Shown here one piece after another: positions 4,784 to 51,400 of a DNA stretch of 54,676 nt. Position numbers and translations under genes: made by a program. Below the pieces are notes generated by a model that saw nothing but the letters and a program-made list of their open reading frames with translations, was not told the DNA's origin and did not search any database. The stretch spans positions 1-54,676 of the forward strand of contig JAIFWO010000002.1 in NCBI GenBank assembly GCA_019661895.1, in the 5' to 3' direction. Numbering within the stretch: the stretch's first letter is position 1; each line of letters starts with the position of its first letter. This DNA comes from Candidatus Parcubacteria bacterium. Lineage in GTDB: Bacteria; Patescibacteriota; Minisyncoccia; Phycocordibacterales; Zambryskibacteraceae.

Positions 4784-4785
4784 TC

Positions 4786-5904: not shown

Positions 5905-5907
5905 CTC

Positions 5908-6710: not shown

Positions 6711-6728
6711 CCGATGCGCCCTGTGTTA

Positions 6729-6764
6729 GCCGGTATCCCAAAAAGGGGTGCCGGCTTTTCTTTT
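6729..6764 (+). terminator. rho-independent terminator
   Basis: GCCGGTATCCC-AAAAA-GGGGTGCCGGC hairpin with two G-U pairs, followed by TTTTCTTTT. Confidence 0.6.
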
Positions 6765-6780
6765 GTGCTATATTTGGCCT

Positions 6781-8606: not shown

Positions 8607-8646
8607 AATGCTTCTATCCTATAGTAGGGTCTAAACAGACGCAATT

Positions 8647-10722: not shown

Positions 10723-10771
10723 AGCTCGAGTATACATTTATTTTGGCTTAGAATAAAGCTATACTAGGCCA
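10723..10771. promoter_or_regulatory. 49-bp divergent promoter region with a -10 hexamer 6 nt from each ATG
   Basis: The plus-strand TATACT at 10760-10765 precedes ATG 10772. The minus-strand TATACT (plus AGTATA at 10729-10734) precedes ATG 10722. Confidence 0.4.
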
Positions 10772-16358: not shown

Positions 16359-16376
16359 CTTTAGTATAGTATCGGT

Positions 16377-20987: not shown

Positions 20988-20995
20988 TTAGGGGT

Positions 20996-23430: not shown

Positions 23431-23460
23431 CAGGAGTTGACTTATAATTACCACAACGAT

Positions 23461-24339: not shown

Positions 24340-24340
24340 G

Positions 24341-25585: not shown

Positions 25586-25607
25586 AAGTTTATGCTACCA
25601 TAACACG

Positions 25608-27764
25608 ATGAACACCATACTTCGTCGCATTATCTTGGCTGGGCTCTTCGTTGTGCCTTTTATTCCTTTCTTCGTCTCGAGTTCTTTGTTCTTCCCGTTC
25701 ATTACCACTAAGGCCTTTCTTTGGCGGGCCGTTGTGGAAATAGTCTTTGGAGCCTGGGTTGTCTTGGCTTTGGCCAGCCCTGAGTACAGACCGAGAGGCT
25801 CAAAACTCCTCTGGTCTCTATTAATATTTATCGCCATCATCGGGCTGGCTGATCTCTTCGGAGCGGCCCCGGCAAAGAGCTTCTGGTCCAACTTCGAGCG
25901 TATGGAAGGATTTGTCTCTCTCCTTCATCTCGGAGCCTTCTTCGTGGTTATCGGGTCGGTGTTTCGAGAGAGGGAATGGAGGTGGTGGTGGAATACATCA
26001 CTCATAGCCTCGGTTTTGATGGTCTTCTACTGTGCCTTTCAACTCCTGGGCTCGGTGCAGATCCACCAGAGCGGGACACGTGTTGATGGCACCTTCGGCA
26101 ATGCCGCATACTTGGCGGTATACATGCTCATCCATATATTTATTGCCCTCATTTACTTCATAAGAACAGAGAGGGGCAACTTCTTGCGGTGGGTATACGG
26201 TGCTCTCTTGGTCGGTCAGGTAGTCATCCTCTACTATACTGCCACCCGCGGTGCTATCCTCGGACTTCTCGGCGGACTGCTTCTTGTCGCTCTTCTCAAT
26301 ATTACAAACAGGGAAAGTGCGCGAATCCGCAAGGCGAGTATCGTGGTGATTGTTGGTTTTGTCATCTTGATTCTGGGATTCTTCTCCATTCGTCATACCT
26401 CGTTTGTGCAAAAGAGCCCAGTCCTCTCGAGATTTGCCTCTATCTCCTCGGCGGAATTGAAGACCGAGGGCCGCTCGTTCATTTGGCCGATGGCCATAGA
26501 GGGGATCAAGGAGAGGCCGCTTCTCGGCTGGGGGCAAGAAAACTTCAATTATGTCTTCGACGAACATTACTCTCCGAAGATGTTTCGTCTTGAGCCTTGG
26601 TTTGATCGTGCCCACAACATCTTCCTCGATTGGGGAGTGGCTGGAGGCCTGTTGGGGCTCCTCAGTTACTTGGCGCTTTACGCCTTCTTCCTCTGGTCTG
26701 TTTGGAAGGACGCGTCCCTTACTCGCCTTGAACGCTCGCTTCTGACCGGACTGATGGCGGCGTACTTCTTCCACAACTTCTTCGTCTTCGACAATCTTGG
26801 CAGCTACATCCTCTTTGCGGCGCTCTTGGCCTACATGCACTCTCGTATCGGCAGAGCAAGCGTTCTGGCCAGGACAGTCACGCAGACGACCGTAAATATC
26901 GCCATGCTTCCGGTGGCTCTGCTTACTATCCTCGCTCTTTACTTCGTCAATGGTAAGCCTCTCACGGCCAATGCTGACCTTATTAAGGGCCTCCAGGCCT
27001 CGCAGGGAGGCGCGGCAGGCACCTCTGTGGCTATGAACTATCTTGAGTCGGCTTACAAGGGCTCGCGTCTTGGCAGACCGGAGACGGTGGAGTGGGTCGC
27101 CAACAGCGCCAGAAATATCCTAAGCTCAGATATTACTACCGAGGAAAAGAATAAATACTTCGAATTTGCCAAAAAGGCGGTGGTAGGCCAAGCCACCGAA
27201 CTTCCGACCGATGCGCGCTATCAGTTGATCACGGGCTCCTTCCTCTCGAGCACCGGTTACCCGGATGACGCTTTGGCCTACCTCACACGCGCACAAAAGC
27301 TTATGCCCGGCAAGCAGCAAGTGTATTTCGAACTTGCTAACGCTCTTATCGCCAAACAAGATTACAAAGGGGCGCTTGTCTATCTCAAACAAGCTTATGA
27401 GATGGCGCCAGAGTACACCGAGGCACAGGTGATCTACCTTACGGGAGCGATCTATGCCGGAGAGAATGCTCTAGCCACCAGTCTTATCAAAGATCTCCCG
27501 GCAGATACCATCGCCAAGGACGATCGAGTGGCCAACGCCCTCTTCTCGACCGGCAAGTACGCTGATCTCGTCGCTATTCTGAAGCAGCGATTAAATTTGG
27601 AACCTGGGAACGCCCAAGTCTACGCCTCGCTCGCGTTGGCTTACGCCAAGGCCGGAGACAGAGCCAGCGCTATTGCCACTCTAGAAAATCTGGAAACAAA
27701 AAATCTCGTGCCGAAAGATCAAGTCGAAGGATACATCAAAGACATCAAGTCAGGAAATTTCTAA
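25608..27764 (+). CDS. O-antigen ligase-like (Wzy_C domain) membrane protein fused to C-terminal TPR repeats
   Basis: I chose ATG 25608 (MNTILRRIILAG). The polytopic N-terminal part carries GRSFIWPMAIEGIKERPLLGWG and RAHNIFLDWGVAGGLLG (Wzy_C-type). The C-terminal ~250 aa contain TPR-like repeats (ALAYLTRAQKLMPGKQQVYFELANALIAKQDYKGALVYLKQAYEMAPEY). Confidence 0.75.
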   Translation: MNTILRRIILAGLFVVPFIPFFVSSSLFFPFITTKAFLWRAVVEIVFGAWVVLALASPEYRPRGSKLLWSLLIFIAIIGLADLFGAAPAKSFWSNFERMEGFVSLLHLGAFFVVIGSVFREREWRWWWNTSLIASVLMVFYCAFQLLGSVQIHQSGTRVDGTFGNAAYLAVYMLIHIFIALIYFIRTERGNFLRWVYGALLVGQVVILYYTATRGAILGLLGGLLLVALLNITNRESARIRKASIVVIVGFVILILGFFSIRHTSFVQKSPVLSRFASISSAELKTEGRSFIWPMAIEGIKERPLLGWGQENFNYVFDEHYSPKMFRLEPWFDRAHNIFLDWGVAGGLLGLLSYLALYAFFLWSVWKDASLTRLERSLLTGLMAAYFFHNFFVFDNLGSYILFAALLAYMHSRIGRASVLARTVTQTTVNIAMLPVALLTILALYFVNGKPLTANADLIKGLQASQGGAAGTSVAMNYLESAYKGSRLGRPETVEWVANSARNILSSDITTEEKNKYFEFAKKAVVGQATELPTDARYQLITGSFLSSTGYPDDALAYLTRAQKLMPGKQQVYFELANALIAKQDYKGALVYLKQAYEMAPEYTEAQVIYLTGAIYAGENALATSLIKDLPADTIAKDDRVANALFSTGKYADLVAILKQRLNLEPGNAQVYASLALAYAKAGDRASAIATLENLETKNLVPKDQVEGYIKDIKSGNF

Positions 27765-31496: not shown

Positions 31497-32036
31497 ATGA
31501 CCCACTTTATCGAAGTATTGATCCCATATGGAGTGCTTCTATCACACTTTCTTCTTGGGTATATCCTCCTTGCGTATATATTTAGAGCTTCATGGGGAAG
31601 AGGGACAGTAGACTTTATAGGTAAGAGGGCAATCATATTGTCGTTTCTCGTCACGCTTCTGACCATATTCGGCAGCCTCTTCTATTCTGGAGTGCTGGGA
31701 TTTGCTCCCTGTGAGCTCTGCTGGTGGCAGAGAGTCTTTCTATATCCTCAGGTAGTACTCTTCCTAACGGCGCTCAAGAATAAAGATAAGAAAGTTTTTA
31801 GTTATTCGGTACGTCTTACCATACTCGCACTTGTCGTAGCTCTGTATCAGGTATATACCCTCTATGGCGGGACTTCCTTCCTTGCCTGCACCTCTCTGGG
31901 TGGCGCTTGCACGAAACTGTATGTAAACGCTTTCGGCTACATCAGTATCCCTGTCATGAGCCTGACGACATCTGTGTACTTACTCATACTCGCATTCTTC
32001 TCAAAAAAATATGACCAAAACAATCGCAACGCATAA
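31497..32036 (+). CDS. DsbB/BdbC family disulfide bond formation protein
   Basis: PCELCWWQRVFLYP closely matches the BdbC motif PCELCWYQRILMYP. The second cysteine pair is ACTSLGGAC, followed by FGYISIPV. Confidence 0.8.
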   Translation: MTHFIEVLIPYGVLLSHFLLGYILLAYIFRASWGRGTVDFIGKRAIILSFLVTLLTIFGSLFYSGVLGFAPCELCWWQRVFLYPQVVLFLTALKNKDKKVFSYSVRLTILALVVALYQVYTLYGGTSFLACTSLGGACTKLYVNAFGYISIPVMSLTTSVYLLILAFFSKKYDQNNRNA

Positions 32037-35463: not shown

Positions 35464-35703
35464 ACTATTAGTTACATAAACATTACTAATCCTATACATA
35501 CAAATTTACTACTTATTGCAATTTCTATCAAGGTTTATGTGTTGATAACTTATTTCGAGCTAATTTTAACAAATTAATTTATTTTGTAAAAAATTTTTAA
35601 GCTGGCAACATAGAAATTTTTAAAATTTAATCTAAATTTGCACTTGAGCTATCCCCAGATTTTTCATAGGACATTTTACTGCCGAGATTTATAATTTACA
35701 TTG
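35464..35703. promoter_or_regulatory. 240-bp very AT-rich divergent control region
   Basis: It lies between two divergently transcribed HTH genes. TATAAT at 35690-35695 sits 8 nt upstream of ATG 35704. It contains repeated AAATTTTTAA-type tracts and imperfect dyads (TTTTAACAAATTAATTTATTTTGTAAAA). Confidence 0.45.
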
Positions 35704-36468
35704 ATGAATAAAGATCTTTTCCTCGAAGGTGTTGAATACATCTCGGCTGGCCAAGCTGCAAAAAAAATTGGATACGCAAGTGACTACGTCGGCCAACTTT
35801 GCCGAGATGGAAAAGTCCCTGGTAAATTAATTGGTCGTACATGGTACGTAGATTTTTCTTCCCTTCTTAATCACAAGATAAGTAGTTCTACGCGAAAGAA
35901 AAAATCAGCAGTAGCAACAGAAATTAACGATGGAACTTCTTTCGTCGCTGTCCCAACCGAAGTAAAATCAGAAGAAAATCTCCCTAGAAAATTAAAAGAA
36001 AGCACTCCTGTAGAAGCAAAAATTTCAGCTATATCTCGTCAGGCCGAGCCGAGATATACACCGCTAAAGATCAAAATTCCTCCGCCAAGAGCTTTTGTCA
36101 TCACCAAGAAGCCCTCACGAGCATTCAAAATCATAAAAGTTTCGATAGGCACTTTCCTTTTCCTGATGCTTGCCGTTAGCACCCTTTCCATGGGGCTTGA
36201 GGGTAGTCCCAATCCTCTCAAACTCGCGACTGCCCTCTTCTCAGAAACTAATACTGCCGCAGTGGGGCAGGGCCAGGGCATTGTGGTGGTTCCAGACTCA
36301 GCTGATCACAATGCACTTGTGTCGCGGATACAAAACTTTTTCTCTGATGATGTCACTATCGCCTTCGACGAAGATGCTGATACGGGAGTGATCACTCCGG
36401 TATTCCATGAGGGAGACGATAGCGAACATTACGCATTCGTCATGGTACCTATCAAGAAAGCACAATGA
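35704..36468 (+). CDS. membrane-tethered HTH protein (N-terminal HTH_17-like domain, one TM, ~90-aa extracytoplasmic domain)
   Basis: ISAGQAAKKIGYASDYVGQLCRDGKVPGKLIGRTWYV is the HTH segment and IIKVSIGTFLFLMLAVSTLSMGL is the TM segment. The stop overlaps the giant-gene start (ATGA at 36465-36468). Confidence 0.6.
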   Translation: MNKDLFLEGVEYISAGQAAKKIGYASDYVGQLCRDGKVPGKLIGRTWYVDFSSLLNHKISSSTRKKKSAVATEINDGTSFVAVPTEVKSEENLPRKLKESTPVEAKISAISRQAEPRYTPLKIKIPPPRAFVITKKPSRAFKIIKVSIGTFLFLMLAVSTLSMGLEGSPNPLKLATALFSETNTAAVGQGQGIVVVPDSADHNALVSRIQNFFSDDVTIAFDEDADTGVITPVFHEGDDSEHYAFVMVPIKKAQ

Positions 36469-39400
36469 GTTTCAAGCGCCTTTCCATCTCAGTGTTGCTC
36501 TTGTCGGTGATCTTCTCACCGCTTAGCCTCTTTGCGCAGGAGATGTCTTCAGGTGGCTACGCTATACAAAGTGATAGCGTAAACTTCGCAGGAGGAAAAA
36601 GCTCCTCAGCTTCCTACAATGTCGAAGATACTGCCGGCGAGATTGCCACCGGCCCTTCAGCAAGCGCGAGCTACAGTTTGAAAGATGCTGGATACCAAAG
36701 CACGACTGGTCCAGTGACGACTCCAGACACTTCGGCGCCGTCGACTCCCGCCAATGTGAATGCTACGGCGGTGTCCTCGGCCAGTATTGAAGTTACCTGG
36801 GACGCTTCGACAGACAATGTCGGGGTGGACAGCTATCGCATATACCGAGACGCGGTGCTCGTTGCCGATGTGGCCATCTTCCCAAGAGATTTTGTCGATA
36901 CTGGCCTAACCCCAGACACCCTCTACGCATATAACGTCTCGGCGGTCGATGCCGCCGGAAATGAGTCAGCTCTCTCGGTATCAGCAAGCGCCCAGACGCT
37001 GGCTCTACCGGTTTCTGTCACGCCGGGATCCTCCCCCGGTTCTTCGTCAGGCCGTACTTTGCAGTTGACCAACTTCATCATAGTGCCGAGTGATACGAGC
37101 GCTCTGGTCTCCTTTACCACCTCAGTGCCTGTGACGACCAAAATAGAGTGGACCGCGTCCGGAGTGGTGCGCAGTGTTCTCAGCAATGAATTGAAGACCG
37201 AACACCACCTTACTCTTAACTCGCTCGTACCGGCGACCGGATACAATGTGCGCATTATTGTCACGACAGCGCTCGGAGTACAGACAACCTTTGAGGGTAT
37301 TGGATTCAGGACGCTCACGGTGGTAAACGTCGTCAGCCCGCTAAACGTCACAAACTTATCCGCTACTCATACAGAGAACGACATCGAGCTTGCCTGGTCC
37401 TTGCCGAAGGATCCTTCGATCGTGGGAGTGCGTCTGGTGCGCTCAACAAGTTTCTATCCGACGTCGCCGGATGACGGGAAAATAATTTTCGAAGACTTTA
37501 ATGGCGGCAAGGCTCTAAACTTCTCCGATACAGACGTGGTGGTGGGAAAGACTTATTACTACGCGATCTTTACCAAAGACATCTCGGGCAACTTTTCCTC
37601 TGGGGTGGTGGCGCATGCGAGCATCCCGCTTCCAGGAGAGCCGGTCGCTACGACCACTCCGCTCGACAATCTGCCTGAAGCCGCTAACGTCGATCCGGCC
37701 ATTGCCGCCCTCGTCACGAAAGACTTCCTCTTTATCCAAGATGGAGACAGCTTGCCTGTATCCGGTGACACGGTCACTATAAACGGCAACAAGAATTTGA
37801 CGGTCGCGCTCAAGTATTACCACCTGCCGGAGGTCTTGAAGACCGTGGCAGTGACTCTGGTGGGATGGGAGAACGGAAGTCCAAAATCCTTCACTTTCCT
37901 TTTGCGCGCCAATCGCGACAAGACTCGTTATGAGGCAACTATCGGTGCTCTGGTGGTGGGAACGTATGGCTTGAAGATCACCGTCATCGACTTCAAGAAT
38001 CAAGGCTTGAAAAAGATCGCCGGCACGCTCGTCGCGGGTGAGAACCTAGAGGCAGCTGCGCAAGAGATTTCTGGTAAGGACATAATGGTAGTCCTCGGCG
38101 TCGCTCTCCTCATATTGTTGGCGGTCTTCGGCAACTGGTTACGCAAATACTTCCTTAGGCGCCGCCGATTTGCTCGGGCGGTCATGCCGGTATTGTTTGC
38201 GGTGTTCCTCTCCGGGATCTTGGCTGCCTCTGTCTTGGCCCAGACATTTAATGCCAGCTTCAATCCTGAAATAAATTATCAAGGAAGGCTCACTGATACG
38301 AGCAATACTCCAGTCGCTGACGATTCGTACAATATGCGCTTCAAGCTCTACACCACTTCGACTGGGGGAGCGCCAATTTGGACTGAGACGGATTCTCTAA
38401 GCGATACGGTGACAGTTTCCTCAGGACTCTTCTCGCTTATGCTCGGTTCGACGACCGCGCTCTCGGGGGTGGACTTCAATCAGACTTTATACCTTTCGGT
38501 AGAGATCGGCGGTACCTCGACTGTACCTGTGTGGGATGGAGAGATGAGCCCAAGAAAGGTGCTTGGCGCGGTGCCTGCGGCATTTGTCTCAGACACACTC
38601 GACGGCCTTGATTCGACGCAGTTTGTCAGAAGCGACGCTACCTCGACCATTGCTTCCTCGTCCTCACAAACACTCCTAACTATCAATCAGACTGGTACAG
38701 GAAACCTTTTGGATATTCAGAAGTCCGGTGTCTCTCAACTTACGGTCGGTGGAACTGGGATAATCTTCACCAACTCCACCGGTACCTCTGCTACCACCAC
38801 TAATCTCTTCGCTACCACCGCCTCCACCACCAACTTCTTCGGAGCTGGACTTAGTACATGTAATAGTGCCGGTAATGCTCTGACCTACAACGGGGCGGGG
38901 AAGTTTGGCTGTGGATCTTTCACTACTGCGGCCTCTTCCACGCTTCTAGCAGACAACAATACCTTCAGCGGTGCTAACACCTTCTCACAAACTATCACTG
39001 GTTCCATCTCCGGTAACGCCGGCAGTGCCACCGTTCTCCAAAATGCTCGTACCATTAACGGCACCTCCTTCAACGGTACGGCCAACATCACGATCATGGC
39101 GGCTTCGTCCACTTTACTCGCAGACAATAATACCTGGACGGGAGGAAATATCTTTGGTAATGCCACAACGACAAATGCCACCACGACCTCTCTGTTTACC
39201 ACAAACGGCACTCTCACAAATCTTTTGTATACGACGGCTAACGGTGGAGCTATTACCTCGACTGGTCTTGGAAGCTTCGCCAATCTTTTTGCCTCTGGAT
39301 CAACGACGCTCCAAAACTTCACTGGTCTTAATTCAACGACGACCAATGCTACGACCACATCGATCTTTAGTGCTATTGCTTCTTCGACCAATCTTTTCTC

Positions 39401-42400
39401 GGCGGCGGCAAGGTTGGGTGCGCTGACCTTGGGAAATATTATAGGCACCACGCAGTGTCTCCATGTTGATACTAACGGAGTAGTCTCTGGTACTGGAGTG
39501 GAGTGCGGTAGCGGTTCTGGCTCCGTCACCTCAGTCTCGAACGTAGATGGTACACTCACCATTTCTCCCACCACTGGAGCAGTCGTTGCCTCACTTAATC
39601 TCGGCACAGGGAATGTCTGGACAGCCGCTTCGACCACCTTTGTAAACGGCGTCACTCTCGGTCGCTCGACTACTACTAACGCCACCACAACAAACTTTTT
39701 TGCCACTACTGCATCCACTACCAACCTCTCAGTCGCTAATACTATTCAAGGATCGGTCTCGGGTAATGCCGGTACGGCAACAGCTCTTCAAAATGCACGT
39801 ACTATTAACGGTACCTCCTTCGACGGCACGGCCAACATCACGATCACGGCGGCTTCGTCTACTCTTCTGGGAGATACTAATACATGGACTGGGGACAATG
39901 TCTTCGGCAACGCCTCCTCTACTAACTTCTTTGCCACTACGGCAAGTTCCACCAATCTCTTCTCCACTGCTCTGACCACCGGCCTCATCACTTCCGGTCT
40001 TGTGAATGGCCAAACAATCTCAAGCGCCGCCAACTTTACCGGCACCCTTACCACCTCGGGTCTCGGCACGTTTGGCAATCTCCTCACTACAGGCTCCTCG
40101 ACGCTCCAAAACTTTACGGCTCTTAACTCCACCTCTACAAATGCGACAACGACGTCATTATTTGCTTCTACGGCTTCTTCAACAAATCTCTTTAGCTCCA
40201 GCGGCAACATCGGTCTTCTAACCATAGGCAACTCCACCTCATCTAACGCTACTTCCACCAATTTCTTTGCCACTACAGCAAGTTCAACGAATCTCTTCTC
40301 AACAAGTTTAAATACAGGCCTTATCACCTCCGGTAACGTTAACGGCCAGACCGTAAGCTCTGCGGCTAACTTCACGGGAACTGTTACCGCCACGGGGGGC
40401 CTCACCACGCTCTCCAATCTCTTGCTTGCTGGCTCGACAACGCTTCAGAATCTGACCTTCGTTAATGCCACTGGTAGTGCTGCTACGACCACGAATTTGT
40501 TTGCTACCAGTTTGACGGCAGGAACGCTCAAGACCACGAGCACTGCTACTATCGGCGGGAGTCTCTTTATCAGTACAGTGCTCAACTGTAATTCCTCATC
40601 ACAATCTCTCCAAACAGACGGGTCTGGTATTGTGTCTTGCGGAACTATAACCGGAGGCGGTGCATCCGTTGGTGGCGGCTGGGCCTCGCTCGCTCCAAAT
40701 ATCGTGAGACTCTCGACGACCACCGATCTTGTCGGTGTCGGCACAACCAGTCCATATGCCAAAGTCTCGATTAACTCTGGCGCCCAAGCTACGACCACCT
40801 TGGCGCTTGTGCCGGTCTCTGGTCAGACGGCTAATATCATAGATATATACGACATCTCCAGTAACCTCTCGAGCGTCTTTACCTCTGGGGGACGATTGGG
40901 CATCGGCTCGACTTCGCCATCATCAATGCTTACTGTCGGCGGGGAAGCATATATAGACGGTGATCTCACCGTCTCTGGAGCGAGCGGTTTACAAAACTTT
41001 ACGGCTCTTAACTCCACCTCGACCTCCGCCACCACTACCAACCTCTTCGCCACTACAGCCTCTACCACGAACTTCTTCGGGGCCGGACTTAGTACTTGCT
41101 CAAGCGCTGGGAACGCCTTGACATATAATGGATCAGGGAAGTTCGGATGCTCGACCATTACCGCGGCTTCCACCACTCTTCTTGTAGACAATAACGCCTT
41201 TACCGGAGCCAATACTTTTGTTGGAGTGACGATTACCCGTTCCACTACCACTCAAGCTACCACTACAAACTTCTTCTCAACTACAGCTTCAAGTACGAAC
41301 CTCTTTAGTACGAACGGCAACATTGGCCTTCTCACTATAGGCAACTCCACCTCATCCAACGCCACTTCCACTAACTTCTTTGCTACTACCGCAAGTTCCA
41401 CTAATCTCTTCTCCACCACTCTTACCACTGGCCTTATCACTTCTGGGCTTATCAATGGCCAAACAATCTCTTCCGCCGCCAACTTCACCGGCTCACTTAC
41501 GGCTTCAGGCTTAGGTACATTTGGTAATCTCTTAACTTCAGGATCTTCTACTTTCCAGAACTTCACTTTCGTTAATGCTACTGGCACCTCGGCTACCACC
41601 ACCAATCTCTTTACCACCACAGCTTCCACTACCAACTTCTTCGGAGCCGGGCTTAGTACATGTAATAGTGCAGGCAATGCTCTTACTTACTCTGGAGGCA
41701 AGTTTGCTTGCTCGAGCGTTACCGCCGCCTCCTCTACGCTCCTCGCAGACAACAACACCTTCACAGGAGCAAACATCTTCAACAACATCACTCGCTCCAC
41801 CACTACTTCCGCTACTACTACCTCGCTCTTCTCTACTACCGCATCATCTACCAATGTCTTCTCCACCAATGGCAATATTGGCCTCTTAACCATAGGCAAC
41901 TCCACCTCATCTAACGCTACTTCCACTAACTTCTTTAGTACTACAGCAAGTTCCACCAACCTCTTCTCCACTGCTCTCACCACTGGTCTCATTACCTCAG
42001 GCAACGTGAACGGCCAGACGATCTCTTCCGCAGCTAACTTCACTGGTACTCTCACTGCTTCTGGCTTAGGAACATTTGGCAATCTTCTCTCCTCTGGTTC
42101 TTCCACCTTCCAAAACATCACCTTCTTGAATTCAACGAGTACCAACGCCACCACGACTTCTCTCTTCACTGCCACCGCCTCCACCACCAACCTCTATGTG
42201 GCCACGGGAGCAGGCTGTCTCCAGGTAGATTCGGCCGGCAAGGTCTTCTCCATTGGCTCTGCTTGTGGTACAGGAAGCGGCTCTGTGACCTCCGTCTCAG
42301 ATAATGGAGGAGGTACGCTCACTATTTCTCCTACCACTGGAGTGGTGTCCGCTTCTATTAATTTGGGCAATTCAAACGTCTGGACGGCCGCTTCCACAAC

Positions 42401-45400
42401 GTTTGTGAATGGAGTGACTTTGGGCCGCTCGACCACTACCAACGCGACTACTACCTCTCTCTTCTCCACTACAGCCTCGAGTACAAATCTTTTTAGTACG
42501 AATGGTAACATCGGTATCCTGACCATAGGTAATGCAACTTCTTCTAACTCATTCTCAAGTACCGCCTCAAGTACTAACCTCTTCTCCACCAATGCCAGCT
42601 TGGGACAGGTAACACTTGCTAACGCCACCTCGACCACTCTCTTCTCCACCGTTGCCTCCTCTACCGATCTCTTCTCTACCGCTCTCACCACTGGCCTCAT
42701 CACTTCCGGCAACATTAACGGCCAGACTATCTCTTCCGCAGCCAACTTCACCGGTACTCTTACTGCTTCTGGCTTAGGAACCTTTGGCAACCTCTTGTCT
42801 TCGGGATCATCCACTTTACAGAACTTCACCTTCGTTAATGCTACTGGCACCTCGGCTACGACCACGAATTTCTTTGCCACTACGGCTTCATCAACAAACT
42901 TGTTCGCGGCTGCCTCTCAGTTAGGATCCGTCACAATCAATAGTATTACCGGCTCCACTCAATGTTTGCGCGTCGACTCGACCGGCAAGATATCCGGCAC
43001 CGGATCAGATTGTTCAACGGCGGGCAGTAGCGGCTCGGTCAATCTTGGTAATCAAGGCCAGGTGCCTTATTACAGCGCCAATGCCACCACGACTCTCTCA
43101 GCCACCTCTACGATATTTATCGCTACCAATGAGAATGTCGGTATAGGCGACACCAATCCGCAAAACAAATTGAGCGTGAATGGAAGCGTGGCCATTACGG
43201 CGGGCAATACCTATAAGTACGACGGCATCAATATCGCCGCTGGAGAAAAGACCTTGAAGAATTACTTCTTCGGCAATGCCGGGAATATAAGCGCCTTGGG
43301 TAGTGACAACGTCGGGGTAGGCGATCTCGCTCTCTTTACCATCGCTGGAGTCTCGGCTGGAGCCTCTTCGAAGAATACGGCCGTGGGCTCGTGTGCTCTC
43401 TGTAATCTTGGCTCTTCGGGAGTTTCCTCGGCCAACACGGCTCTTGGATACCATGCTGGTGCTGGGGTATTGGCTGCCGGTGCCGACGACAACACGGCTG
43501 TAGGAAACCTGACTATCACCGACTCGGTTGGATCACGTAACACCGCCCTCGGATCCGAAGCGCTCTCTCTATTATATGGAAACGGCGGGAGTGCCAATGT
43601 GAAGAATAATACCGCAGTCGGCTTCCAGGCCCTCTCGACCGGGTCTAACTCGATAGCGTCCTCGACGGCTCTTGGTTATATGGCTGGATTCGCAAGCACT
43701 GGATCAGATGATCTCTTCCTTGGCGCTCAGGCAGATGCACTTTCGGGTGGGCTTACTAACGTCACGGCCATCGGTGCCATGGCCAAAGCTGGCAGCTCGA
43801 ACTCATTTATTCTTGGAGGGACAGGAAGCTATGCTGTGAACGTGGGTATCGGCCTTACCACTCCCTCGGCGCGCCTTACCGTAAAAGGTACAAGCGGTCA
43901 GACCAATGATCTTGTGCAAGTAGCCTCGTCGACCGGTACCGCCCTCTTTACCATAGACAGCGTTGGCAATATTACCGCGAGCGGACTTGCTACATTCTCA
44001 GATCTTACTACGACCGGTGTGGCCACATTGCCGAGTATCCTCTTCACCAACGCCACCGGCACCTCGGCTACCACGACTAACTTCTTCTCCACTACCGCCT
44101 CCACCACCAACTTCTTCGGAGCCGGGCTCTCTACTTGTAGCAGTGCCGGCAATGCTCTGACCTACAACGGGGCAGGGAGGTTTGCTTGCGGATCTATTAC
44201 CACTGCGGCTTCTTCAACCCTCCTTGCAGACAACAATACTTGGACAGGTTCCAACATCTGGACAGCCGCTTCTTCAACATTCGTCAACGGAGTGACTCTT
44301 GGTCGCTCCACCACTACTTCAGCTACCACCACCTCTCTCTTCTCCACCACTGCCTCCTCAACCAATCTCTTCTTCACCACCGCTTCCGGAGGCAACCTTA
44401 CCTCATCGGGTATTGGTACCTTTGCCAACCTTCTCTCCAATGGATCATCGACTCTCCAAAACTTCACCTTCGTTAACGCTACCGGCACCTCGGCAACAAC
44501 GACTAACATCTTTGCTACGACCGCCTCCTCTACTAATCTTTTTGCCACCACAGAAAACATCGGCTTCTCACTCATTGGCCGTTCTACTACTACGGCAGCT
44601 ACTACGACTAATCTCTTCTCCACTACCGCCTCAAGTACAAATCTCTTCTCCACCGCTCTGACCACTGGTCTCATTACCTCCGGCAACGTGAATGGCCAAA
44701 CAATTTCTTCCGCTGCCAACTTTACGGGTACTCTAACTGCGACTGGTGGTTTAACCACGCTCTCGAATCTTCAGGTAAACGGGTCTTCGACGCTCCAAAA
44801 CTTCACTGGTCTTAATTCAACGACGACGAATGCGACGTCTACAAGCCTCTTTACCACCACAGCCTCTACCACCAACTTCTTCGGGGCTGGACTTAGTACT
44901 TGCTCAAGCGCTGGGAACGCCCTAACTTACGATGGTGCAGGGAAGTTTGCCTGTGGATCTATTACCACAGCAGCTTCCTCCACTCTCTTAGTTGATAACA
45001 ATGCCTTCACTGGTCTCAATACATTTACGGATTTGAAGTTAGTCACTCGCTCCACTACTACGGCCGCAACAACTACGAATATCTTTAGTACCACCGCTTC
45101 AAGCACCAACTTCTTTAGTACGAATGGAAATATCGGTCTATTAACAATAGGTAATTCCACTTCTTCAAATTCTACTTCTACTAATTTCTTCTCCACTACA
45201 GCAAGTTCGACGAATCTTTTTGCCACCATTCTTAATACTGGAAATATCACATCGACTGGCCTCATTACCGCAGCTAATCTCTTGGCTACAGGTTCATCTA
45301 CTCTCCAGAACTTCACAGGTCTTAATTCAACGACGACGAATGCTACATCTACCAATCTCTTCGCCACTACGGCTTCCACCACCAACTTCTTCGGCGCTGG

Positions 45401-48400
45401 GCTCTCAAGCTGTTCAGGCGCTACCAACGCTCTAACCTACAACGGGGCAGGGAGGTTTGCTTGCGGCTCTATTACCACCGCCGCTTCTTCAACACTTTTG
45501 GCAGACAATAATGCCTTCTCGGGTAACAATTCCTTTGCCAATCTCTTGGTGAATGGCTCTTCCACTTTGCAGAACTTCACCTTTATAAATGCTACTGGTA
45601 CTTCGGCTACGACCACTAATCTCTTCTCTACCACAGCAAGTTCAACAAATCTTTTCTACACTACAGCTTCTGGTGGTAACGAAACACTTTCTGGATTACT
45701 CACCGCTTCAAACATTCGAGCCAACGGCTCCACCACTCTCCAGAACTTCACGGGAGTTAACGCTACTACCTCAGGAGCCACAACAACTAACGCATTTGCA
45801 ACCACTGCTTCCTCAACTAACCTCTTTAGTACGAACGGCAATATCGGACTTCTTACAGTAGGCAATTCAACATCTTCCAACGCCACTTCCACTAACTTCT
45901 TTAGCACTACGGCAAGTTCCACTAATCTCTTCTCCACCACTCTTACCACTGGCCTTATCACTTCTGGGCTTATCAATGGCCAAACAATCTCTTCCGCCGC
46001 CAACTTCACCGGCTCACTTACGGCTTCAGGCTTGGGAACATTTGGGAATCTTCTCTCCAATGGCTCGTCTACACTTCAAAACTTCACCTTTATAAACGCC
46101 ACTGGCACTTCTGCTACCTCAACGAACTTCTTTGCAACCACCGCTTCAAGTACAAATCTCTTTGCCACAAACGAAAACATTGGCTTCTCACTCATTGGCC
46201 GTTCTACTACTACCGCTGCCACTACCACCTCTCTATTCGCTACCACTGCCTCTACTACCAGCTTCTTCGGGGCTGGTCTATCTACCTGTTCTGGTGCTAC
46301 TAATGCCTTGACCTACGATGGAGCGGGGAAGTTTGCTTGCGGTTCGATTACCACCGCCGCTTCTTCTACACTTCTGGCGGACAATAATACCTTCACCGGA
46401 GCAAATATCTTCAATAACATCACCCGCTCTACCACCACTTCAGCTACCACCACCAATCTCTTTAGTACCACTGCTTCAAGCACCAATCTCTTTAGTACTA
46501 ATGGAAATATCGGTCTGTTAACAATAGGAAATTCAACGAGTACTAACGCCACTACGACAAATACATTCTCCACTACAGCTTCCTCAACCAACCTCTTCTC
46601 AACAAGTTTAAATACTGGCTTGATCACTTCTGGGCTTATCAATGGCCAAACAATCTCTTCCGCCGCCAACTTTACGGGTACACTTACCACTTCAGGTCTC
46701 GGCACGTTCGGCAACCTTCTCTCCAATGGATCATCAACTTTCCAAAATATCACCTTCGTTAATGCTACTGGTACCTCGGCTACGACCACTAATCTGTTTG
46801 CGACGACGGCTTCTACCACCAACTTCTTCGGAGCCGGACTTAGTACATGTAATAGTGCATCGAACGCATTGATATACGATGGAGCGGGGAAGTTTGGCTG
46901 TAACACAATCTCTGGTACCGCCGCCTCCTCCACCCTCCTCGCAGACAACAACACCTTCACCGGAGCAAACATCTTCAACAACATCACTCGCTCCACTACT
47001 ACTAATGCCACCACTACTACCATCTTCTCTGGTACTGCCTCTTCCACCAACTTGTTCTCTACTAATGCTAACCTCGGTCTCGTCACAATAGGCAACTCCA
47101 CCTCATCTAACGCCACTACCACCAACCTCTTCTCTACCACAGCAAGTTCAACCAATCTCTTCTTCACCACCGCTTCCGGAGGCAGCCTTACCTCATCGGG
47201 TATTGGTACCTTTGCCAACCTTCTCTCCACAGGCTCTTCCACTCTCCAAAACTTTACAGGTCTTAATTCCACTACCACCAACGCTACTACCACTACTATC
47301 TTTGCTACCACGGCTTCGAGTACCAATCTCTTCGCTACGAATGCCAACCTCGGTCTCGTCACTCTTGGTAGATCTACTACCAGCGATGCAACAACCACCA
47401 ACCTCTTCGCCACCACAGCTTCTACCACTAACTTCTTCGGGGGAGGACTATCAACATGCACCGGCTCAAATGTGCTTCAGTGGAGCGCTGGCAAATTCTC
47501 ATGTGCTGCATCCGCTAGCTCGGCTTCCTCAACCCTCCTCGTAGATAATAACGCCTTTACCGGAGCCAATACCTTTGTGGGAGTGACGATTACTCGTTCT
47601 ACCACCACTTCTGCCACTACTACCTCGCTTTTCAGTACCACGGCTTCTTCTACAAATCTCTTCTCCACCAATGGCAATATCGGACTTCTTACAATAGGCA
47701 ACTCAACTTCTTCTAACTCCACCTCCACCAACCTCTTTGCCACTACCGCAAGTTCGACCAACCTCTTTTCTACGGCTCTGACCACAGGCCTTGTCACTTC
47801 CGGTCTTGTGAATGGCCAAACAATCTCAAGCGCCGCCAACTTCACTGGCACCCTCACTGCCACTGCCGGCTTGACCACTCTTTCAAATCTTTTGGTAACA
47901 GCCTCTTCTACTGTTGGTAACGGCACTCAAGCCGGAGGATTGACTATCAATGGCCAAGCCACTACTACCAATCTTTTAGTGACTGGGTCATCGACACTCC
48001 AAAACTTTAGTTTTGTGAATGCTACTGGTACTTCTGCAACAACAACGAACTTCTTTAGCACCACAGCTTCCTCGACCAATCTCTTCTCGACCTCACTTAA
48101 CACTGGTTTAATTACTTCCGGCAACGTGAATGGCCAAACCATAAGTTCTGCTGCCAACTTCACCGGGACTCTTACTGCGACTGGTGGCCTGACCACTTTG
48201 TCCAATCTTTTCCTCTCTGGCTCAACCACTCTCCAGAACTTCACTGGTATAAATTCCACTACCACCAATGCCACGACTACCTCACTTGCTATTAGAAGTA
48301 TTACTGGTTCGACGCAGTGTTTGCATGTAGATACCAATGGTTTGGTTACCGGCACAGGCAGCGATTGCGGAGCAAGCAGCGCCTCAACCGACAAATTCGC

Positions 48401-51400
48401 CACTTCGACCACGCAAAACTTCACCATCACGCCTAACTCAGCAGTGGCCCTTGTCATTGGCCGCAATGCTACCACCACGAGATCGTTGTTGGAAGTAAAT
48501 GGCACCACCACCGCCACTAACTTCGTGGCCACTTCGACGACAGCCTTTAGTACCTTCGCAGGCAATGTTGGTATTGGCACAACCTCTCCTTACAGGACAC
48601 TCTCAGTAAATGGATTTATTAATACTGACGGAACAACTGGTGGTTATCAGATAGACGGCGTGACCGCTCTGCAAGCTAGTTCGACAAATTTCGGGACATT
48701 CATCGGTCTTGGGGCAGGAACTTCCACCAGCGCTACAGGTTTCCGCAACACCTACGGAGGATATTGGGCTGGACAAGGAGAGGTAAATGGCGATGATAAC
48801 GCCAGCTTCGGCTACCGGGCGCTTGCTATAGGCAGCGGTAGTACCAACTCTGCCTTCGGCTCGTTCGCCTTGGAGAACAGCAGTGGCAATACCAACTCGG
48901 CATTAGGATATGCCGCTTTGCAAGCGAACACAGGAGGAATAAGCAACACTGCCGTAGGCGCCCAAGCTCTCACCGCCAACCTGAACGGATCAGAGAGTGT
49001 GGCAGTGGGCTATCAGTCTCTCGCGCTCTTCACCGGCACCGATCCCAATACCGCGCTAGGTACTTGGTCGCTCAATAAGACGACCAGCGGCGGGGGAAAT
49101 ACAGCCACAGGATATACTTCCTTGTTCAACAACACCACCGGATTTTCAAATACCGCCATAGGTCAGGATGCCCTTAACGCGGTTACCACCGGTTCTTTGA
49201 ACACGGCGGTTGGTCGAAATGCTGACTCGAAGAATCGCACCGGCACCGCCAATACAACACTCGGCTACAATGCCTTACTTGGAGTAACAGCCAACTCTCA
49301 CTCTTCATCCACAGCTGTCGGATACGGGGCGGGGTCTGCCGTGACCACCGGCAATGGCAATACCCTTCTCGGCTACAAGGTTGGAGATAACATCACGACC
49401 GGGAGTAACAACATTGTCATCGGCTACGACATCGACTCACCAACAGCCTCCAACTCGAACACTCTCAACATTGGCAACCTCCTCTTCGGTACTGTACTTG
49501 ATGGAACGGGAACCACCATATCAAGCGGCAATATAGGCATCGCCTCTTCCACTCCGTGGGGCAGGCTCTCGGTCGAGATGGATACCATCGATCCTGCCTT
49601 CGTAATTGCTAACCAAGGCTCTTCGACGCCTTCCTTATATGTAGGTGGGGTAAACCAAAATGGCTTCGTGGGCTTCGGTACCACCACCACTCCTTCGCTG
49701 GCTCGCATTATTATCGATAATACCATCGGCTCTGATGCTGGATCGGGTATTGCCGTGGCCGGAGAGCACCAGATCTACACCTTCAACCCTTCGACGACGA
49801 ATACAGTCCAAGTTGGTAACCGCACGATTGTGCAGAACTCTCCTGTCGGTGCTACGGCCACCAACACTGCCGTTGGTACACTCATTCGCATGATAGATAA
49901 TAGTGGTATCTCAAACTTGGTCCGTGGGCTTGAGGTAGTGGCGAGCGCTGGTAATACCACCTTCGGAGTCAATACTGGCATCCGTGGTTCTGGGCACACC
50001 TTCGGCGTTCAAGGTATTACCACCGGGCTAGCTGGCGGCACCTCAACACCGGCTGCCATCTATGGTGAGAACTCTGGTACGACTCAGGGAGATATCTTGC
50101 GCCTCTATACTTCTACTATGACCACGGCGACCTCGGTGGCGAGCTTCTACCAAGAGATCTCAACCTTTACCGGCACTGGCCTGACTATGAACTTCGGCAA
50201 GGGTGGAGGAACATTCACGGGTAAGTTCGTGGACTTTAAGGTCAATGATAATACTCGCTTCAAGGTCGAGTATGGTGGTACCACGACGATTGGTCAATTG
50301 AGTCAAACCACCACTCAAGCTGGTATCCAAATTGGATACGGAGGACTTTGTGTTGATAACGATGGAGCATGTACCGCTACTACCACTGGCCGCGTCACCG
50401 CGCGTGAGTATATCACCGCCGGTGCCGACCTCGCGGAAGCTTACTACTCATCGGAGTCTCTCACTCCGGGAGATATCGTGTTTACTAAGGGTAAGTTCTA
50501 CGTTGGCAAGGCCTCCTCCTCGACCGATCCGGTCATTGGAGTGGTCTCGACTAGGCCCGGCATGACACTCGGCACGGGCGAGGTGAAGTTCTCAAGCTTA
50601 AACGAATATCCAATTGGTCTCTCGGGCCGCGTGCCAGTCAGGCTCTCCACGGAGAATGGAGTGATAAATGTCGGAGACAAGATCGCCCTCTCGAGCATTG
50701 CTGGCGTGGGTATGAAGTATGATCCGACCAAGCCGGGCACTATCATCGGTATCGCCCTTGAGGCCTTCGACGGTACTGATGCACTCTCCGAGGGAACGGT
50801 GGAGGTGAAGACTCAAAAAGTTTCCTCAGGTTCCACATGCACGACGACGGAAAGTTCCGGCGACAAGCAGGCCTGGGGCGGTGGAGACAGCGAGGGCACT
50901 ACGACGCACACCACTAGTACCGGGACAGAGACAAGCTGTACGCAAAATGAGGTCACCCTCATTCCCGATGCCGGGACAGCCGAGTCGAGCACGACCAATG
51001 CGGGCATGACGGTCAAGGTAGGTAGCGCGCTGGTCTTCCTCGGTATCGAACGCCCGACCCTTACAGCTAGCCAGGGCTCAATGACTCTGGCACAAGGGGA
51101 TTATAGTCTCGAGAATCACAGCATCTTAAACGTAAAGAGTATCGCCAGCGCCAACGGTAAGTGGTCAATAAACGAGGATGGGGAATTGGTCGTGGAATCC
51201 ATCCGCGCTAAACGAGCCAACTTCTCGGACAGTGTGGAAGTCGGTACCAAGGAGATGCCGACGGGCCTCACGCTCTACGACTCTGCCACCGGCGCACCGT
51301 ATTGCTTGAGTATGAACAATGGTGCGATCTCTTCGGCCCCTGGACTATGTAAGGCCGCCGCTCCGACAGCCAGTTTGACTCAAACTACTATCATTAGCTC

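What the first reader, a model, noticed from the sequence alone, without database searches (positions are those of the whole stretch)
38085..38240. Internal TM hairpin whose second helix looks like a complete signal peptide: two secreted modules fused in one ORF
At about aa 541-592 the sequence reads IMVVLGVALLILLAVFGNWL-RKYFLRRRRFARAV-MPVLFAVFLSGILAASVLA|QT. This is a TM helix, then a strongly basic loop, then a segment with full signal-peptide anatomy: an n-region RRRRFARAV, an h-region, and V-L-A before the predicted cut. The true N-terminal signal also ends in ...SLFA|QE. An in-frame ATG sits at 38184, at the start of the second hydrophobic segment. There are three options. The first is a hairpin anchor with both the 540-aa FN3 module and the 4480-aa fibre outside the cell. 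The second is signal-peptidase cleavage releasing the fibre from a membrane-anchored FN3 stub. The third is internal initiation giving a separate secreted fibre. Each is an unusual way to build or anchor a giant adhesin.
Basis: partly seen in the sequence, partly recalled or inferred. Interest (0 to 1): 0.7.

Follow-up and report, generated by a model that had tools for sequence, protein, structure and literature searches.

The report
Anchor and fibre genes fused
A 5,078-residue surface protein of an uncultured ultrasmall (Patescibacteria) bacterium joins two genes that are separate neighbours in most relatives, a membrane-anchored base and a secreted giant fibre, and the fibre's own export signal survives in the middle of the protein, where it probably still directs cleavage into two pieces.

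Summary
Window ORF 36465..51701 has only three strongly hydrophobic segments: the N-terminal signal peptide, TM1 (aa 540-559), and a signal-peptide-like TM2 (aa 574-592, VLA|QT). TM1 and TM2 are separated by a +7 Arg-rich loop.

Comparative data explain the feature. In syntenic loci of related Paceibacteria, gene A (signal peptide, FN3 domains, C-terminal TM anchor, basic tail, stop) is directly followed by gene B (signal peptide ending AxA, an Ig-like 'INYQGRL' domain, then a tail-fibre-like giant fibre). The two genes are usually 4-nt overlapped (ATGA).

The window carries an in-frame A::B fusion. So do 9 of 46 species-representative genomes and at least 35 protein-cluster representatives. 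On crude trees fused and split forms interleave, with at least 7-10 transitions.

Across 41 non-redundant fused junctions the hydrophobic core has diverged almost completely. Position -1 is still Ala in 39 of 41, and -3 is always a residue the (-3,-1) rule allows (A/V/S/T/L). Every measured loop is net positive.

Most likely reading: a hairpin-inserted polyprotein cut by signal peptidase I after Ala592. An uncleaved hairpin anchor is the main rival. Internal initiation at ATG 38184 is unlikely to be the main route.

Cleavage is inferred, not shown. The window's own junction comes from a single contig.

The parts
35701..36468 (+). Upstream gene X (255 aa): N-terminal helix-turn-helix-like segment, one TM helix, C-terminal ectodomain. 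Its stop overlaps the start of the giant ORF by 4 nt (ATGA). Operon context only.
   Evidence: An unannotated 265-277 aa gene sits at the same position in L001 and L003. No Pfam or NCBIfam hit.
36465..36536 (+). N-terminal Sec-type signal peptide of module A (aa 1-24, MSFKRLSISVLLLSVIFSPLSLFA|QE).
   Evidence: A|Q(E/S/A)xMSS is conserved in the stand-alone A proteins.
36537..38081 (+). Module A ectodomain (aa 25-539): PamT-like N-terminal stretch, FN3 domain(s), and a conserved membrane-proximal domain ending in 'IDFKNQGLKK'.
   Evidence: Pfam fn3 at aa 93-169, E 3.4e-11. NCBIfam PamT at aa 8-84, 28 bits, far below the cut-off. 38-52% identity over 559 aa to 22 stand-alone 540-580 aa A proteins.
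38082..38141 (+). TM1 (aa 540-559): the stop-transfer membrane anchor of module A.
   Evidence: KD19 = 2.52. Corresponds to the C-terminal TM helix of stand-alone A proteins.
38142..38183 (+). Cytoplasmic loop (aa 560-573, RKYFLRRRRFARAV, net +7). It corresponds to A's basic tail and also serves as the n-region for the following signal sequence. Contains CGA at 38166-38168, one substitution from TGA.
   Evidence: Loops of all 14 measured fused junctions are net +3 to +7.
38184..38240 (+). TM2, the retained signal peptide of module B (aa 574-592, MPVLFAVFLSGILAASVLA). Starts with the in-frame ATG at 38184. Predicted signal peptidase I site is V590-L591-A592 | Q593.
   Evidence: KD19 = 2.41. Aligns with the N-terminal leaders of stand-alone B proteins. 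The -1/-3 positions are conserved in 41 fused junctions. AF2 predicts one helix over aa 563-591.
38241..38564 (+). Start of mature module B: flexible QTFNASFNPE linker (aa 593-602), then an Ig-like beta-sandwich N-domain (aa 603-700, 'INYQGRLT...EMSPRK..GAVPAAF').
   Evidence: AF2 pLDDT above 93 for the domain. Foldseek against the PDB gave only generic beta-sandwich matches, none with E <= 0.001. Conserved in more than 200 proteins.
38565..51701 (+). Remainder of module B: Thr/Ser/Gly/Ala/Asn-rich fibre with about 10 repeat modules and 18 Cys pairs, most spaced 16-17 residues apart. Contains tail-fibre- and tail-spike-like stretches. Stop codon TGA at 51699-51701.
   Evidence: No Pfam family at E <= 0.01 in the C-terminal third and only one spurious hit elsewhere.

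Best explanation
The hairpin is the seam of a gene fusion. In most related Paceibacteria the locus holds two adjacent, translationally coupled genes. Gene A encodes a type I membrane protein: signal peptide, FN3 ectodomain, C-terminal TM anchor and basic cytoplasmic tail. Gene B encodes a secreted tail-fibre-like giant protein: signal peptide, Ig-like N-domain and a long fibre. In this window the stop and start between them are gone, and both are read as one 5078-aa precursor. Proposed mechanism, inferred from Sec/signal-peptidase biology: the N-terminal signal peptide starts export of the 515-aa A ectodomain. TM1 (aa 540-559) stops transfer. The +7 loop (aa 560-573) stays in the cytoplasm. 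B's retained signal sequence (aa 574-592) re-engages the translocon with N-in/C-out orientation and starts export of the 4486-aa fibre. Signal peptidase I then cuts after Ala592. This would give the same two products as the split genes, except that B's signal peptide stays attached to A as a second membrane helix. Shown here: the fusion, its orthology to split gene pairs, its recurrence and persistence, the charge bias of the loop, and conservation of the cleavage motif. Inferred: the topology, the cleavage itself, and that A acts as the membrane base for fibre B.
For: (1) Synteny. In L001 and L003 the order Wzy_C - SecA - ... - Obg - GatB - (MerR) - X - A - B matches the window, with A (560-579 aa) and B (2106 aa in L003) as separate genes overlapping by ATGA. 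(2) In 46 split loci the distance from A's stop to B's start is -23 to +15 nt in 43, with mode -4. (3) Fused forms are real and common. They occur in 9 of 46 GTDB species-representative loci, in further metagenome loci, and in at least 35 representatives of 50%-identity clusters up to 7725 aa. All fused loci have uninterrupted ORFs from A's own signal peptide to the locus end. (4) Fused and split states interleave on NJ trees. Fitch parsimony gives a minimum of 7 changes for 59 sequences and 10 for 86 sequences. There is also a large all-fused clade, which shows the fused state is stable. (5) In-frame split loci exist with stop + 1 codon + ATG (L053, L054), one point mutation from a fusion. 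In the window CGA at 38166 is one transition from TGA. (6) Cleavage motif. In 14 fused junctions the h-region pairwise identity is 12% and -2 is 12%, yet -1 is Ala in 14 of 14. In 41 non-redundant fused junctions -1 is A in 39 and S in 2, and -3 is A/V/S/T/L in all. The site lies 4-5 residues before the first strand in 37 of 41. This matches 209 N-terminal B leaders. (7) The positive-inside rule holds: all 14 measured loops are net +3 to +7. In the junctions where both helices were delimited correctly, TM2 is less hydrophobic than TM1, as expected for a signal peptide compared with an anchor. (8) AF2 predicts a helix to aa 591, then a disordered stretch at aa 592-602, then a confident beta-sandwich. 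The site is therefore at an accessible helix end. (9) B has 18 Cys pairs and a DsbB gene lies nearby, consistent with an extracytoplasmic location.
Against: No experiment or dedicated predictor (SignalP, DeepTMHMM) was available, so cleavage is inferred only from motif conservation. Part of that conservation could reflect shared ancestry or a structural role of the residues at the domain boundary. The window's own junction is known from a single contig (singleton cluster). The closest relatives found are about 57-66% identical, so a point error or a strain variant (TGA read as CGA) cannot be excluded for this genome. The trees are crude NJ trees on about 270 residues, so the number and direction of fusion and fission events are approximate. 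Topology alone does not distinguish cleaved from uncleaved.
Confidence: 0.6

Rival explanations
1. Same gene fusion and same hairpin topology, but TM2 is not cleaved. The hairpin would then be a permanent double anchor holding both the FN3 module and the 4486-aa fibre on the outer face as one polypeptide. By extension, B's leader in split species would be an uncleaved signal anchor.
For: Joining A's cytoplasmic C-terminus to B's cytoplasmic N-terminus needs no change in topology, so fusion and fission would be neutral whether or not cleavage occurs. In the window TM2 is nearly as hydrophobic as TM1 (KD19 2.41 against 2.52) and has no proline in its c-region. A covalent anchor would explain how a giant fibre stays on a cell without an obvious cell-wall sorting signal.
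Against: The strict conservation of Ala at -1 and a small or aliphatic residue at -3, next to fully diverged h-regions, is not expected for a plain TM helix. In most fused relatives the h-region is short and is followed by a G/S/P break and a polar c-region.
Confidence: 0.22
2. The fibre is made mainly as a separate protein by internal translation initiation at ATG 38184. It would use MPVLFAVFLSGILAASVLA as an ordinary N-terminal signal peptide, and the fused read-through product would be minor.
For: An in-frame ATG sits exactly at the start of TM2. The closest fused relative, P0112/L004, also has Met there (...HLRSRK-MATLLL...). Genes in this window generally lack strong Shine-Dalgarno sites, so the absence of one upstream of 38184 is not evidence against initiation.
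Against: There is no stop codon for A, so every ribosome translating A reads on into B. A leader starting at M574 would have no K/R in its n-region, whereas all 46 split-locus leaders listed have a basic residue there. 9 of the 14 measured fused junctions have no Met in the loop or at the start of TM2, so the architecture does not depend on internal initiation.
Confidence: 0.06
3. For this particular contig the fusion is an artefact or a non-functional variant. A sequencing or assembly error, or a rare strain allele, would have converted the stop codon of gene A (for example TGA to CGA at 38166-38168), and the real organism would have two genes.
For: The window protein is a singleton seen on one contig. 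One substitution would restore a stop followed by a 15-nt in-frame spacer and ATG, an arrangement seen in split relatives (in-frame gaps of 0-15 nt).
Against: The 15.2-kb ORF is otherwise uninterrupted. Fused ORFs with the same anatomy occur in dozens of independent assemblies and lineages. The hypothetical stand-alone B leader would be the only one without a basic n-region, which suggests the junction has adapted to being internal.
Confidence: 0.1

Closest known systems
[quoted passage not shown] The paper itself is not held, so the details below are from my own knowledge.
   Same: A single bacterial ORF encodes two envelope proteins that are separate adjacent genes in other bacteria. The second protein's signal sequence is retained internally after TM helices of the first. 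Processing at that internal signal gives two polypeptides.
   Different: FbcH is a respiratory complex, not a surface fibre. Its processing was shown experimentally, whereas here it is inferred. Here the fused and split states alternate repeatedly within one lineage, and the downstream product is a 4486-aa extracellular fibre.
Viral envelope polyproteins processed by host signal peptidase, such as flavivirus C-prM-E-NS1, alphavirus E2-6K-E1 and bunyavirus Gn-Gc (textbook knowledge; one search returned only an orthobunyavirus review).
   Same: A TM anchor of the upstream protein is followed directly by an internal signal sequence for the downstream protein. This forms a hairpin with a short cytoplasmic loop, and cleavage occurs on the far side of the membrane after a small-x-small motif.
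   Different: Those systems use the eukaryotic ER and the signal peptidase complex. They are obligate polyproteins, not alternatives to a two-gene arrangement.
CPR Pam pilus system: PamR anchor, PamT tip pilin and an associated 'tail fibre-like protein' (bioRxiv 10.64898/2026.03.03.709456).
   Same: It is found in Patescibacteria. PamR is a signal-peptide protein with two FN3 domains and a C-terminal TM helix, proposed to tether an extracellular filament to the membrane, which resembles module A. A tail-fibre-like gene co-localises with pam operons. Module A's N-terminus gives a weak match to the PamT model.
   Different: The PamT match is 28 bits against a cut-off of 240 and covers only aa 8-84. 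No Pam pilin or chaperone hit was obtained for the four proteins scanned against NCBIfam. That paper does not describe a fused anchor-fibre precursor or an internal signal peptide.
Phage tail-fibre and tail-spike proteins, and bacterial tail-fibre-like proteins with a Peptidase_S74 intramolecular chaperone domain.
   Same: Module B matches PHROG tail-fibre and tail-spike families (phrog_1833 E 1.3e-10; phrog_4636 E 7.6e-21). The orthologous B protein in L003 carries PF13884 Peptidase_S74.
   Different: The window's B has no PF13884 hit. It is chromosomal, Sec-exported and paired with a membrane anchor gene.

Membership tests
Sec-type signal peptide cleaved by signal peptidase I (here internal) | Positively charged n-region directly before the hydrophobic core | tested here: met
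   RKYFLRRRRFAR (net +7) precedes the core. From M574 onward there is no basic residue, so the n-region exists only in the fused reading.
Sec-type signal peptide cleaved by signal peptidase I (here internal) | Hydrophobic h-region followed by a short c-region with small or aliphatic residues at -3 and -1 | tested here: met
   PVLFAVFLSGIL, then AASVLA with V590 at -3 and A592 at -1. The same rule holds in 41 of 41 fused junctions and in 209 N-terminal leaders.
Sec-type signal peptide cleaved by signal peptidase I (here internal) | Homology to a bona fide N-terminal signal peptide of orthologues | tested here: met
   Stand-alone B proteins start with leaders ending AxA before the same FN(A/P)..INYQG(K/R)L motif, for example L003 MKKLFAKFTVILILTTLVVGGLPISTQA|AFNASFNPEINYQGRL.
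Sec-type signal peptide cleaved by signal peptidase I (here internal) | Demonstrated cleavage, or a positive call by SignalP/DeepTMHMM | not testable with these tools
Stand-alone 'A' family: FN3 membrane-anchor proteins of Paceibacteria | Signal peptide, FN3, the conserved 'DFLFIQ..LKTIAVTL..DFKNQGLKK' domain, then TM and a basic segment | tested here: met
   38-52% identity over aa 1-559 to 22 family members, with 53 invariant columns. TM1 and the basic loop align with their TM and tail.
Stand-alone 'A' family: FN3 membrane-anchor proteins of Paceibacteria | Stop codon shortly after the basic tail | tested here: not met
   There is no stop between 38142 and 51698. This is the fusion.
'B' family: tail-fibre-like proteins with the INYQG(K/R)L N-domain | Conserved Ig-like N-domain directly after the leader | tested here: met
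   E down to 1e-60 and beyond against more than 100 proteins. AF2 beta-sandwich with pLDDT above 93.
CPR Pam pilus components (PamT/PamR) | Score at or above the NCBIfam cut-off for NF058579 (PamT, 240 bits) | tested here: not met
   28.4 bits, covering aa 8-84 only. The resemblance to PamR is architectural only.
CPR Pam pilus components (PamT/PamR) | Neighbouring donor-strand pilins and TM-anchored chaperones (PamA/B/C/D) | tested here: inconclusive
   Pfam scans of the window's ORFs did not reveal them. Only four proteins were scanned against NCBIfam. No structure-based test was done.
FbcH-type bacterial polyprotein with an internal signal peptide | The two halves are separate adjacent genes in relatives | tested here: met
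   37 of 46 species-representative loci are split.
FbcH-type bacterial polyprotein with an internal signal peptide | The precursor is processed into two polypeptides | not testable with these tools
   Inferred only from the conserved -3/-1 motif.
Peptidase_S74 (PF13884) tail-fibre proteins | C-terminal intramolecular chaperone domain detected | tested here: not met
   No hit in the window protein at E <= 0.1. It is present in the L003 orthologue.

The most novel reading that the evidence does not exclude
In Paceibacteria, signal peptidase I acts as a polyprotein-processing enzyme for a surface appendage. A membrane base and a giant tail-fibre-like fibre are made either from two coupled genes or from one precursor whose internal signal peptide is cut, and lineages have switched between the two forms many times. 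In the fused form the spent signal peptide stays on the base as a second membrane helix. The fibre then emerges from the same translocon as its anchor, which would enforce 1:1, co-localised assembly. This would be a natural bacterial counterpart of viral envelope polyproteins, and a Rosetta-stone indication that A is the docking base of fibre B.
Probability: 0.45. Interest if true: 0.65.

Novelty: new variant of a known kind. Interest (0 to 1): 0.55.

Why it matters
Internal signal peptides that turn one bacterial ORF into two exported proteins are very rare. FbcH is the classic case. Here the arrangement occurs naturally, many times over, next to the equivalent two-gene arrangement. That gives a ready-made comparative system for three questions: how Sec and signal peptidase handle TM-plus-signal hairpins, how gene fusion and fission of exported proteins is tolerated, and how ultrasmall episymbiotic bacteria anchor giant fibres without a cell-wall sorting signal. 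The recurrent fusion also predicts a physical partnership between the FN3 anchor and the fibre, which is a testable lead on an uncharacterised and widespread Patescibacteria surface structure. In practice, annotation pipelines and predictors that look for signal peptides only at N-termini will misread these giant proteins.

Tried and rejected
1. Shine-Dalgarno analysis upstream of ATG 38184 was uninformative. Anti-SD duplex energy was -2.5 kcal/mol, against a mean of -1.5 for the window's genes and -2.4 for other ATGs inside the ORF. This genome's genes mostly lack SD sites.

2. A metagenome scan for close relatives found nothing closer than about 66% identity. The window-specific peptide pattern FGNWLRKY recovered no close relative. 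The window's own junction could therefore not be confirmed independently, and the cluster look-up shows a singleton.

3. The first homologue search returned only proteins of 628 aa or fewer and so hid the full-length fused forms. The exhaustive representative search corrected this.

4. Foldseek of the B N-domain against the PDB gave only generic Ig-like matches, none at E <= 0.001. PDB sequence searches of the C-terminal 699 aa found nothing.

5. Pfam and NCBIfam gave no family for B or for gene X. Peptidase_S74 is not detected in the window's B.

6. Tandem Repeats Finder found no DNA-level repeats in the 15-kb gene.

7. N-x-S/T sequons in B are not enriched over composition: 136 observed against 146 +/- 9 in shuffles. 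The idea of a sequon-driven link to the upstream glycosylation cluster was dropped.

8. No cell-wall or exosortase-type sorting motif (LPXTG, PEP-CTERM) lies before TM1, and there is no lipobox Cys in TM2 (sequence inspection).

9. No signal peptidase gene was detected among the window ORFs scanned.

10. The FbcH paper and a follow-up could not be read. Other literature searches found no description of this arrangement.

11. A second AF2 run on the whole junction was not made, because the tool returns no PAE or contacts and so could not test A-B docking.
Full report
**1. The observation.** ORF 36465..51701 (+) encodes 5078 aa. A 19-residue hydropathy scan of the whole protein passes 1.6 at only three places: aa 6-24, 540-558 and 573-591. 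The region reads IMVVLGVALLILLAVFGNWL (aa 540-559, nt 38082-38141), then RKYFLRRRRFARAV (aa 560-573, nt 38142-38183, net +7), then MPVLFAVFLSGILAASVLA (aa 574-592, nt 38184-38240), then QTFNASFNPEINYQGRL. The in-frame ATG at 38184 is there. Pfam finds FN3 at aa 93-169.

**2. Source and context.** The window is a cellular chromosome fragment. It carries SecA (28072-30552), GatB (33855-35246), Obg, DsbB, many glycosyltransferases and a Wzy_C/TPR protein. All relatives are Patescibacteria (Paceibacterota/Parcubacteria). The window is the entire contig on which its protein is recorded.

**3. What the seam is.** A homologue search with aa 400-760 returned two kinds of proteins.
- Proteins of about 560-580 aa have their own signal peptide, FN3 domains, the '...DFKNQGLKK...' domain, one TM helix, a Lys/Arg cluster and then a stop. 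I call these 'A'.
- The other proteins start with a classical leader ending AxA, directly before '(A)FNxxINYQG(K/R)LT...'. I call these 'B'.

Contigs carrying A proteins show the same gene order as the window: Wzy_C, SecA..., Obg, GatB, (MerR), X, A, B. There A and B are separate genes whose stop and start overlap as ATGA. B is a 2106-aa Peptidase_S74 protein in L003.

A pattern scan of one genome per GTDB species gave 46 loci, and A is always directly followed by B. In 37 of them the genes are split. In 9 (L004, L030, L031, L034-L037, L040, L041) they form one ORF with TM1, a basic loop and TM2, as in the window. Metagenome loci add further fused cases (L050, L055, L056, L063, L079). They also add split cases in the same frame, separated by only a stop and one codon: L053 '...EERG*IMKTKK' and L054 '...QQEK*SMTYTR'.

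In the 46 distinct split junctions, B's ATG lies between -23 and +15 nt of the end of A's stop in 43 cases, with mode -4.

The first search tool returned nothing longer than 628 aa, so I ran the exhaustive representative search. It recovers the window protein (P0111) and at least 35 further representatives of 50%-identity clusters, 639-7725 aa long. In each, one alignment (or two or three stretches in those with long loops) spans both the A and B sides of the junction. All fused loci have open reading frames running from A's own signal peptide to the end of the available DNA. The fusion is therefore a genuine, common architecture and not a gene-calling artefact.

**4. Evolution.** I built NJ trees from A's last 137 residues plus B's first 135. 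Fused and split forms interleave on these trees. Fitch parsimony needs at least 7 changes for 59 sequences and 10 for 86 sequences, with a split root.

The window pairs with the split locus L057. The closest fused relative is P0112/L004 (57% identity; ...FVFVHLRSRK-MATLLLSMFVVISFAFTVRVNA|ATWNASFNPH...). It pairs with the split loci L013 and L015. P0113 pairs with the split locus L003. A large clade is entirely fused, so the fused state persists over long times.

These trees are crude. The exact counts and the direction of change (fusion versus fission) are provisional.

For the window itself, CGA at 38166-38168 is one transition from TGA. Reverting it would give A ending '...RKYFLRRR*', a 15-nt in-frame spacer and then ATG. 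Split relatives show this kind of layout, with in-frame gaps of 0-15 nt. This is a plausible route to the fusion but is not demonstrated.

**5. How it most likely works.** Topology follows from established Sec biology and the positive-inside rule.
- The first signal peptide exports the A ectodomain.
- TM1 stops transfer.
- The Arg-rich loop stays inside the cell. All 14 measured loops are net +3 to +7.
- TM2 inserts N-in/C-out and restarts translocation of the fibre.

The fibre is extracytoplasmic in character. It is 66% T/S/G/A/N, about 3% charged, and has 18 Cys pairs, most spaced 16-17 residues apart. A DsbB gene lies nearby.

The key question is whether TM2 is cut. In 14 diverged fused junctions the 21 residues upstream of -3 share only 12% pairwise identity, and -2 shares 12%. 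Yet -1 is Ala in 14 of 14, and -3 is A, V, S or T in every case. In the enlarged set of 41 non-redundant fused junctions:
- -1 is Ala in 39 and Ser in 2.
- -3 is A in 25, V in 7, S in 3, T in 3 and L in 3.
- The site lies 4-5 residues before the first beta-strand in 37 of 41.

This is indistinguishable from 209 N-terminal leaders of stand-alone B proteins. In the window's clade the site moves with the end of the hydrophobic segment (VLA|QTFNAS..., TQA|AFNAS..., ATA|ATWNAS...) rather than staying at a fixed distance from the domain. That is the behaviour expected of a cleavage site.

In the junctions where both helices were delimited correctly, TM2 is less hydrophobic than TM1 (mean KD about 1.6-2.8 against 2.3-3.6) and usually carries a G/S/P break. 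AlphaFold2 places a helix up to aa 591, a disordered stretch at aa 592-602, and then a confident Ig-like sandwich at aa 603-700.

I therefore favour cleavage by signal peptidase I after Ala592. It would yield A (aa 25-592, now with two membrane helices) and the free fibre B (aa 593-5078), the same products as in species with split genes.

**6. Rivals.**
- An uncleaved hairpin anchor fits the topology equally well. It would explain retention of the fibre on the cell, but not the conserved -3/-1 motif.
- Internal initiation at ATG 38184 cannot be excluded for this genome. P0112 also has Met at this point, and SD sites are generally absent. However, A has no stop, so read-through into B is unavoidable. 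A leader beginning at M574 would be the only one without a basic n-region. Nine of the 14 measured fused junctions have no Met in the loop or at the start of TM2.
- An error or rare allele in this single contig remains possible. The same anatomy in dozens of independent assemblies makes the biological conclusion independent of it.

**7. What the two modules are.** Module A resembles, in architecture only, the FN3-plus-C-terminal-TM anchor PamR of the recently described CPR Pam pilus. Its N-terminus gives a weak PamT match of 28 bits against a cut-off of 240. Membership is not supported.

Module B is tail-fibre-like, with PHROG tail-fibre and tail-spike matches. Its N-domain is a generic Ig-like sandwich without a significant PDB neighbour.

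Tight translational coupling and repeated fusion suggest that A and B act together, with A as the membrane base of the fibre. This is an inference of the Rosetta-stone type.

**8. Comparison and novelty.** The nearest bacterial precedent is the B. japonicum FbcH cytochrome b/c1 precursor with an internal signal peptide. This rests on my own knowledge; the reference was seen but the paper is not held. The nearest mechanistic analogues are viral envelope polyproteins cut by signal peptidase.

I found no description of an anchor-fibre precursor of this kind in Patescibacteria. I rate it a new variant of a known kind. The mechanism class is known. Its use for a giant surface fibre, and its repeated interconversion with a two-gene form, is new.

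Interest is 0.55. The finding is solid and surprising to secretion and CPR specialists, but the central biochemical step, cleavage, is still inferred.

Noticed in passing
window 35701..36468 (+): The gene directly upstream (255 aa) has an N-terminal helix-turn-helix-like segment, one TM helix (about aa 150-172) and a C-terminal ectodomain. Its stop overlaps the giant ORF's ATG (ATGA). An unannotated 265-277 aa gene sits at the same place in L001 and L003. It could be a membrane-tethered regulator of the fibre operon. It has no Pfam or NCBIfam family.
   Followed up: partly
window 38565..51698 (+), with DsbB at 31497..32036: The fibre has 36 cysteines arranged as 18 pairs, most spaced 16-17 residues apart and recurring with about 10 repeat modules. 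A DsbB gene lies 5 kb upstream and is also present in the syntenic locus L001. This suggests disulfide-stapled loops along the fibre.
   Followed up: partly
window 51715..54676 (+): Another large secreted protein starts 14 nt after the giant ORF, with leader MKTLLKKTFRQLLVVVLMVASSLSVLPADVFA|AN. It runs off the end of the contig after at least 987 aa. The minus-strand 'ORFs' here are Pro-rich shadows of it. Pfam gave only a marginal SSL_N match.
   Followed up: partly
window 1..27764: The upstream half of the contig is a surface-glycan gene cluster. It contains several GT4 glycosyltransferases, two epimerase/dehydratases, methyltransferases, a Polysacc_synt flippase, UbiA, and a 748-aa Wzy_C (O-antigen ligase family) plus TPR protein. 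That last protein stays next to SecA in the syntenic loci L001 and L003. Whether the Ser/Thr-rich fibre is glycosylated is open. N-x-S/T sequons are not enriched.
   Followed up: partly
L053 and L054 (metagenome loci), junction about 100 nt upstream of nt 3430: These are split A/B pairs in the same reading frame, separated only by a stop and one codon ('...EERG*IMKTKK', '...QQEK*SMTYTR'). A single substitution would create a fusion like the window's.
   Followed up: yes
window 36486..36716 (aa 8-84 of the giant ORF): The N-terminus of module A, with its repeated S-x-S-Y-x-hydrophobic-x-D units (SSGGYAIQSDSVNFAGG / SSSASYNVEDTAGE / ASASYSLKDAG), weakly matches NCBIfam NF058579 'CPR-type pilus protein PamT' (E 1e-6, 28 bits). 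This hints at a link to donor-strand pilus systems of CPR bacteria.
   Followed up: partly
window 3002..4783 (+): A 593-aa protein gives weak matches to TrwB/VirD4-type coupling proteins and HerA-like ATPases (E about 1e-5 to 1e-6). It is isolated among glycan-synthesis genes.
   Followed up: no
window 36465..51701: The protein has about 10 recognisable repeat modules, yet Tandem Repeats Finder finds no DNA repeat (period up to 500, score 200 or more). The repeats are long-period or have diverged at the nucleotide level, which may be why a 15-kb repetitive gene assembled intact.
   Followed up: partly
method note: The word-indexed homologue search returned no protein longer than 628 aa and missed the window's own 5078-aa protein. 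It therefore showed almost only split or truncated forms. The exhaustive representative search revealed dozens of full-length fused proteins. Prevalence estimates from the first tool alone would have been misleading.
   Followed up: yes
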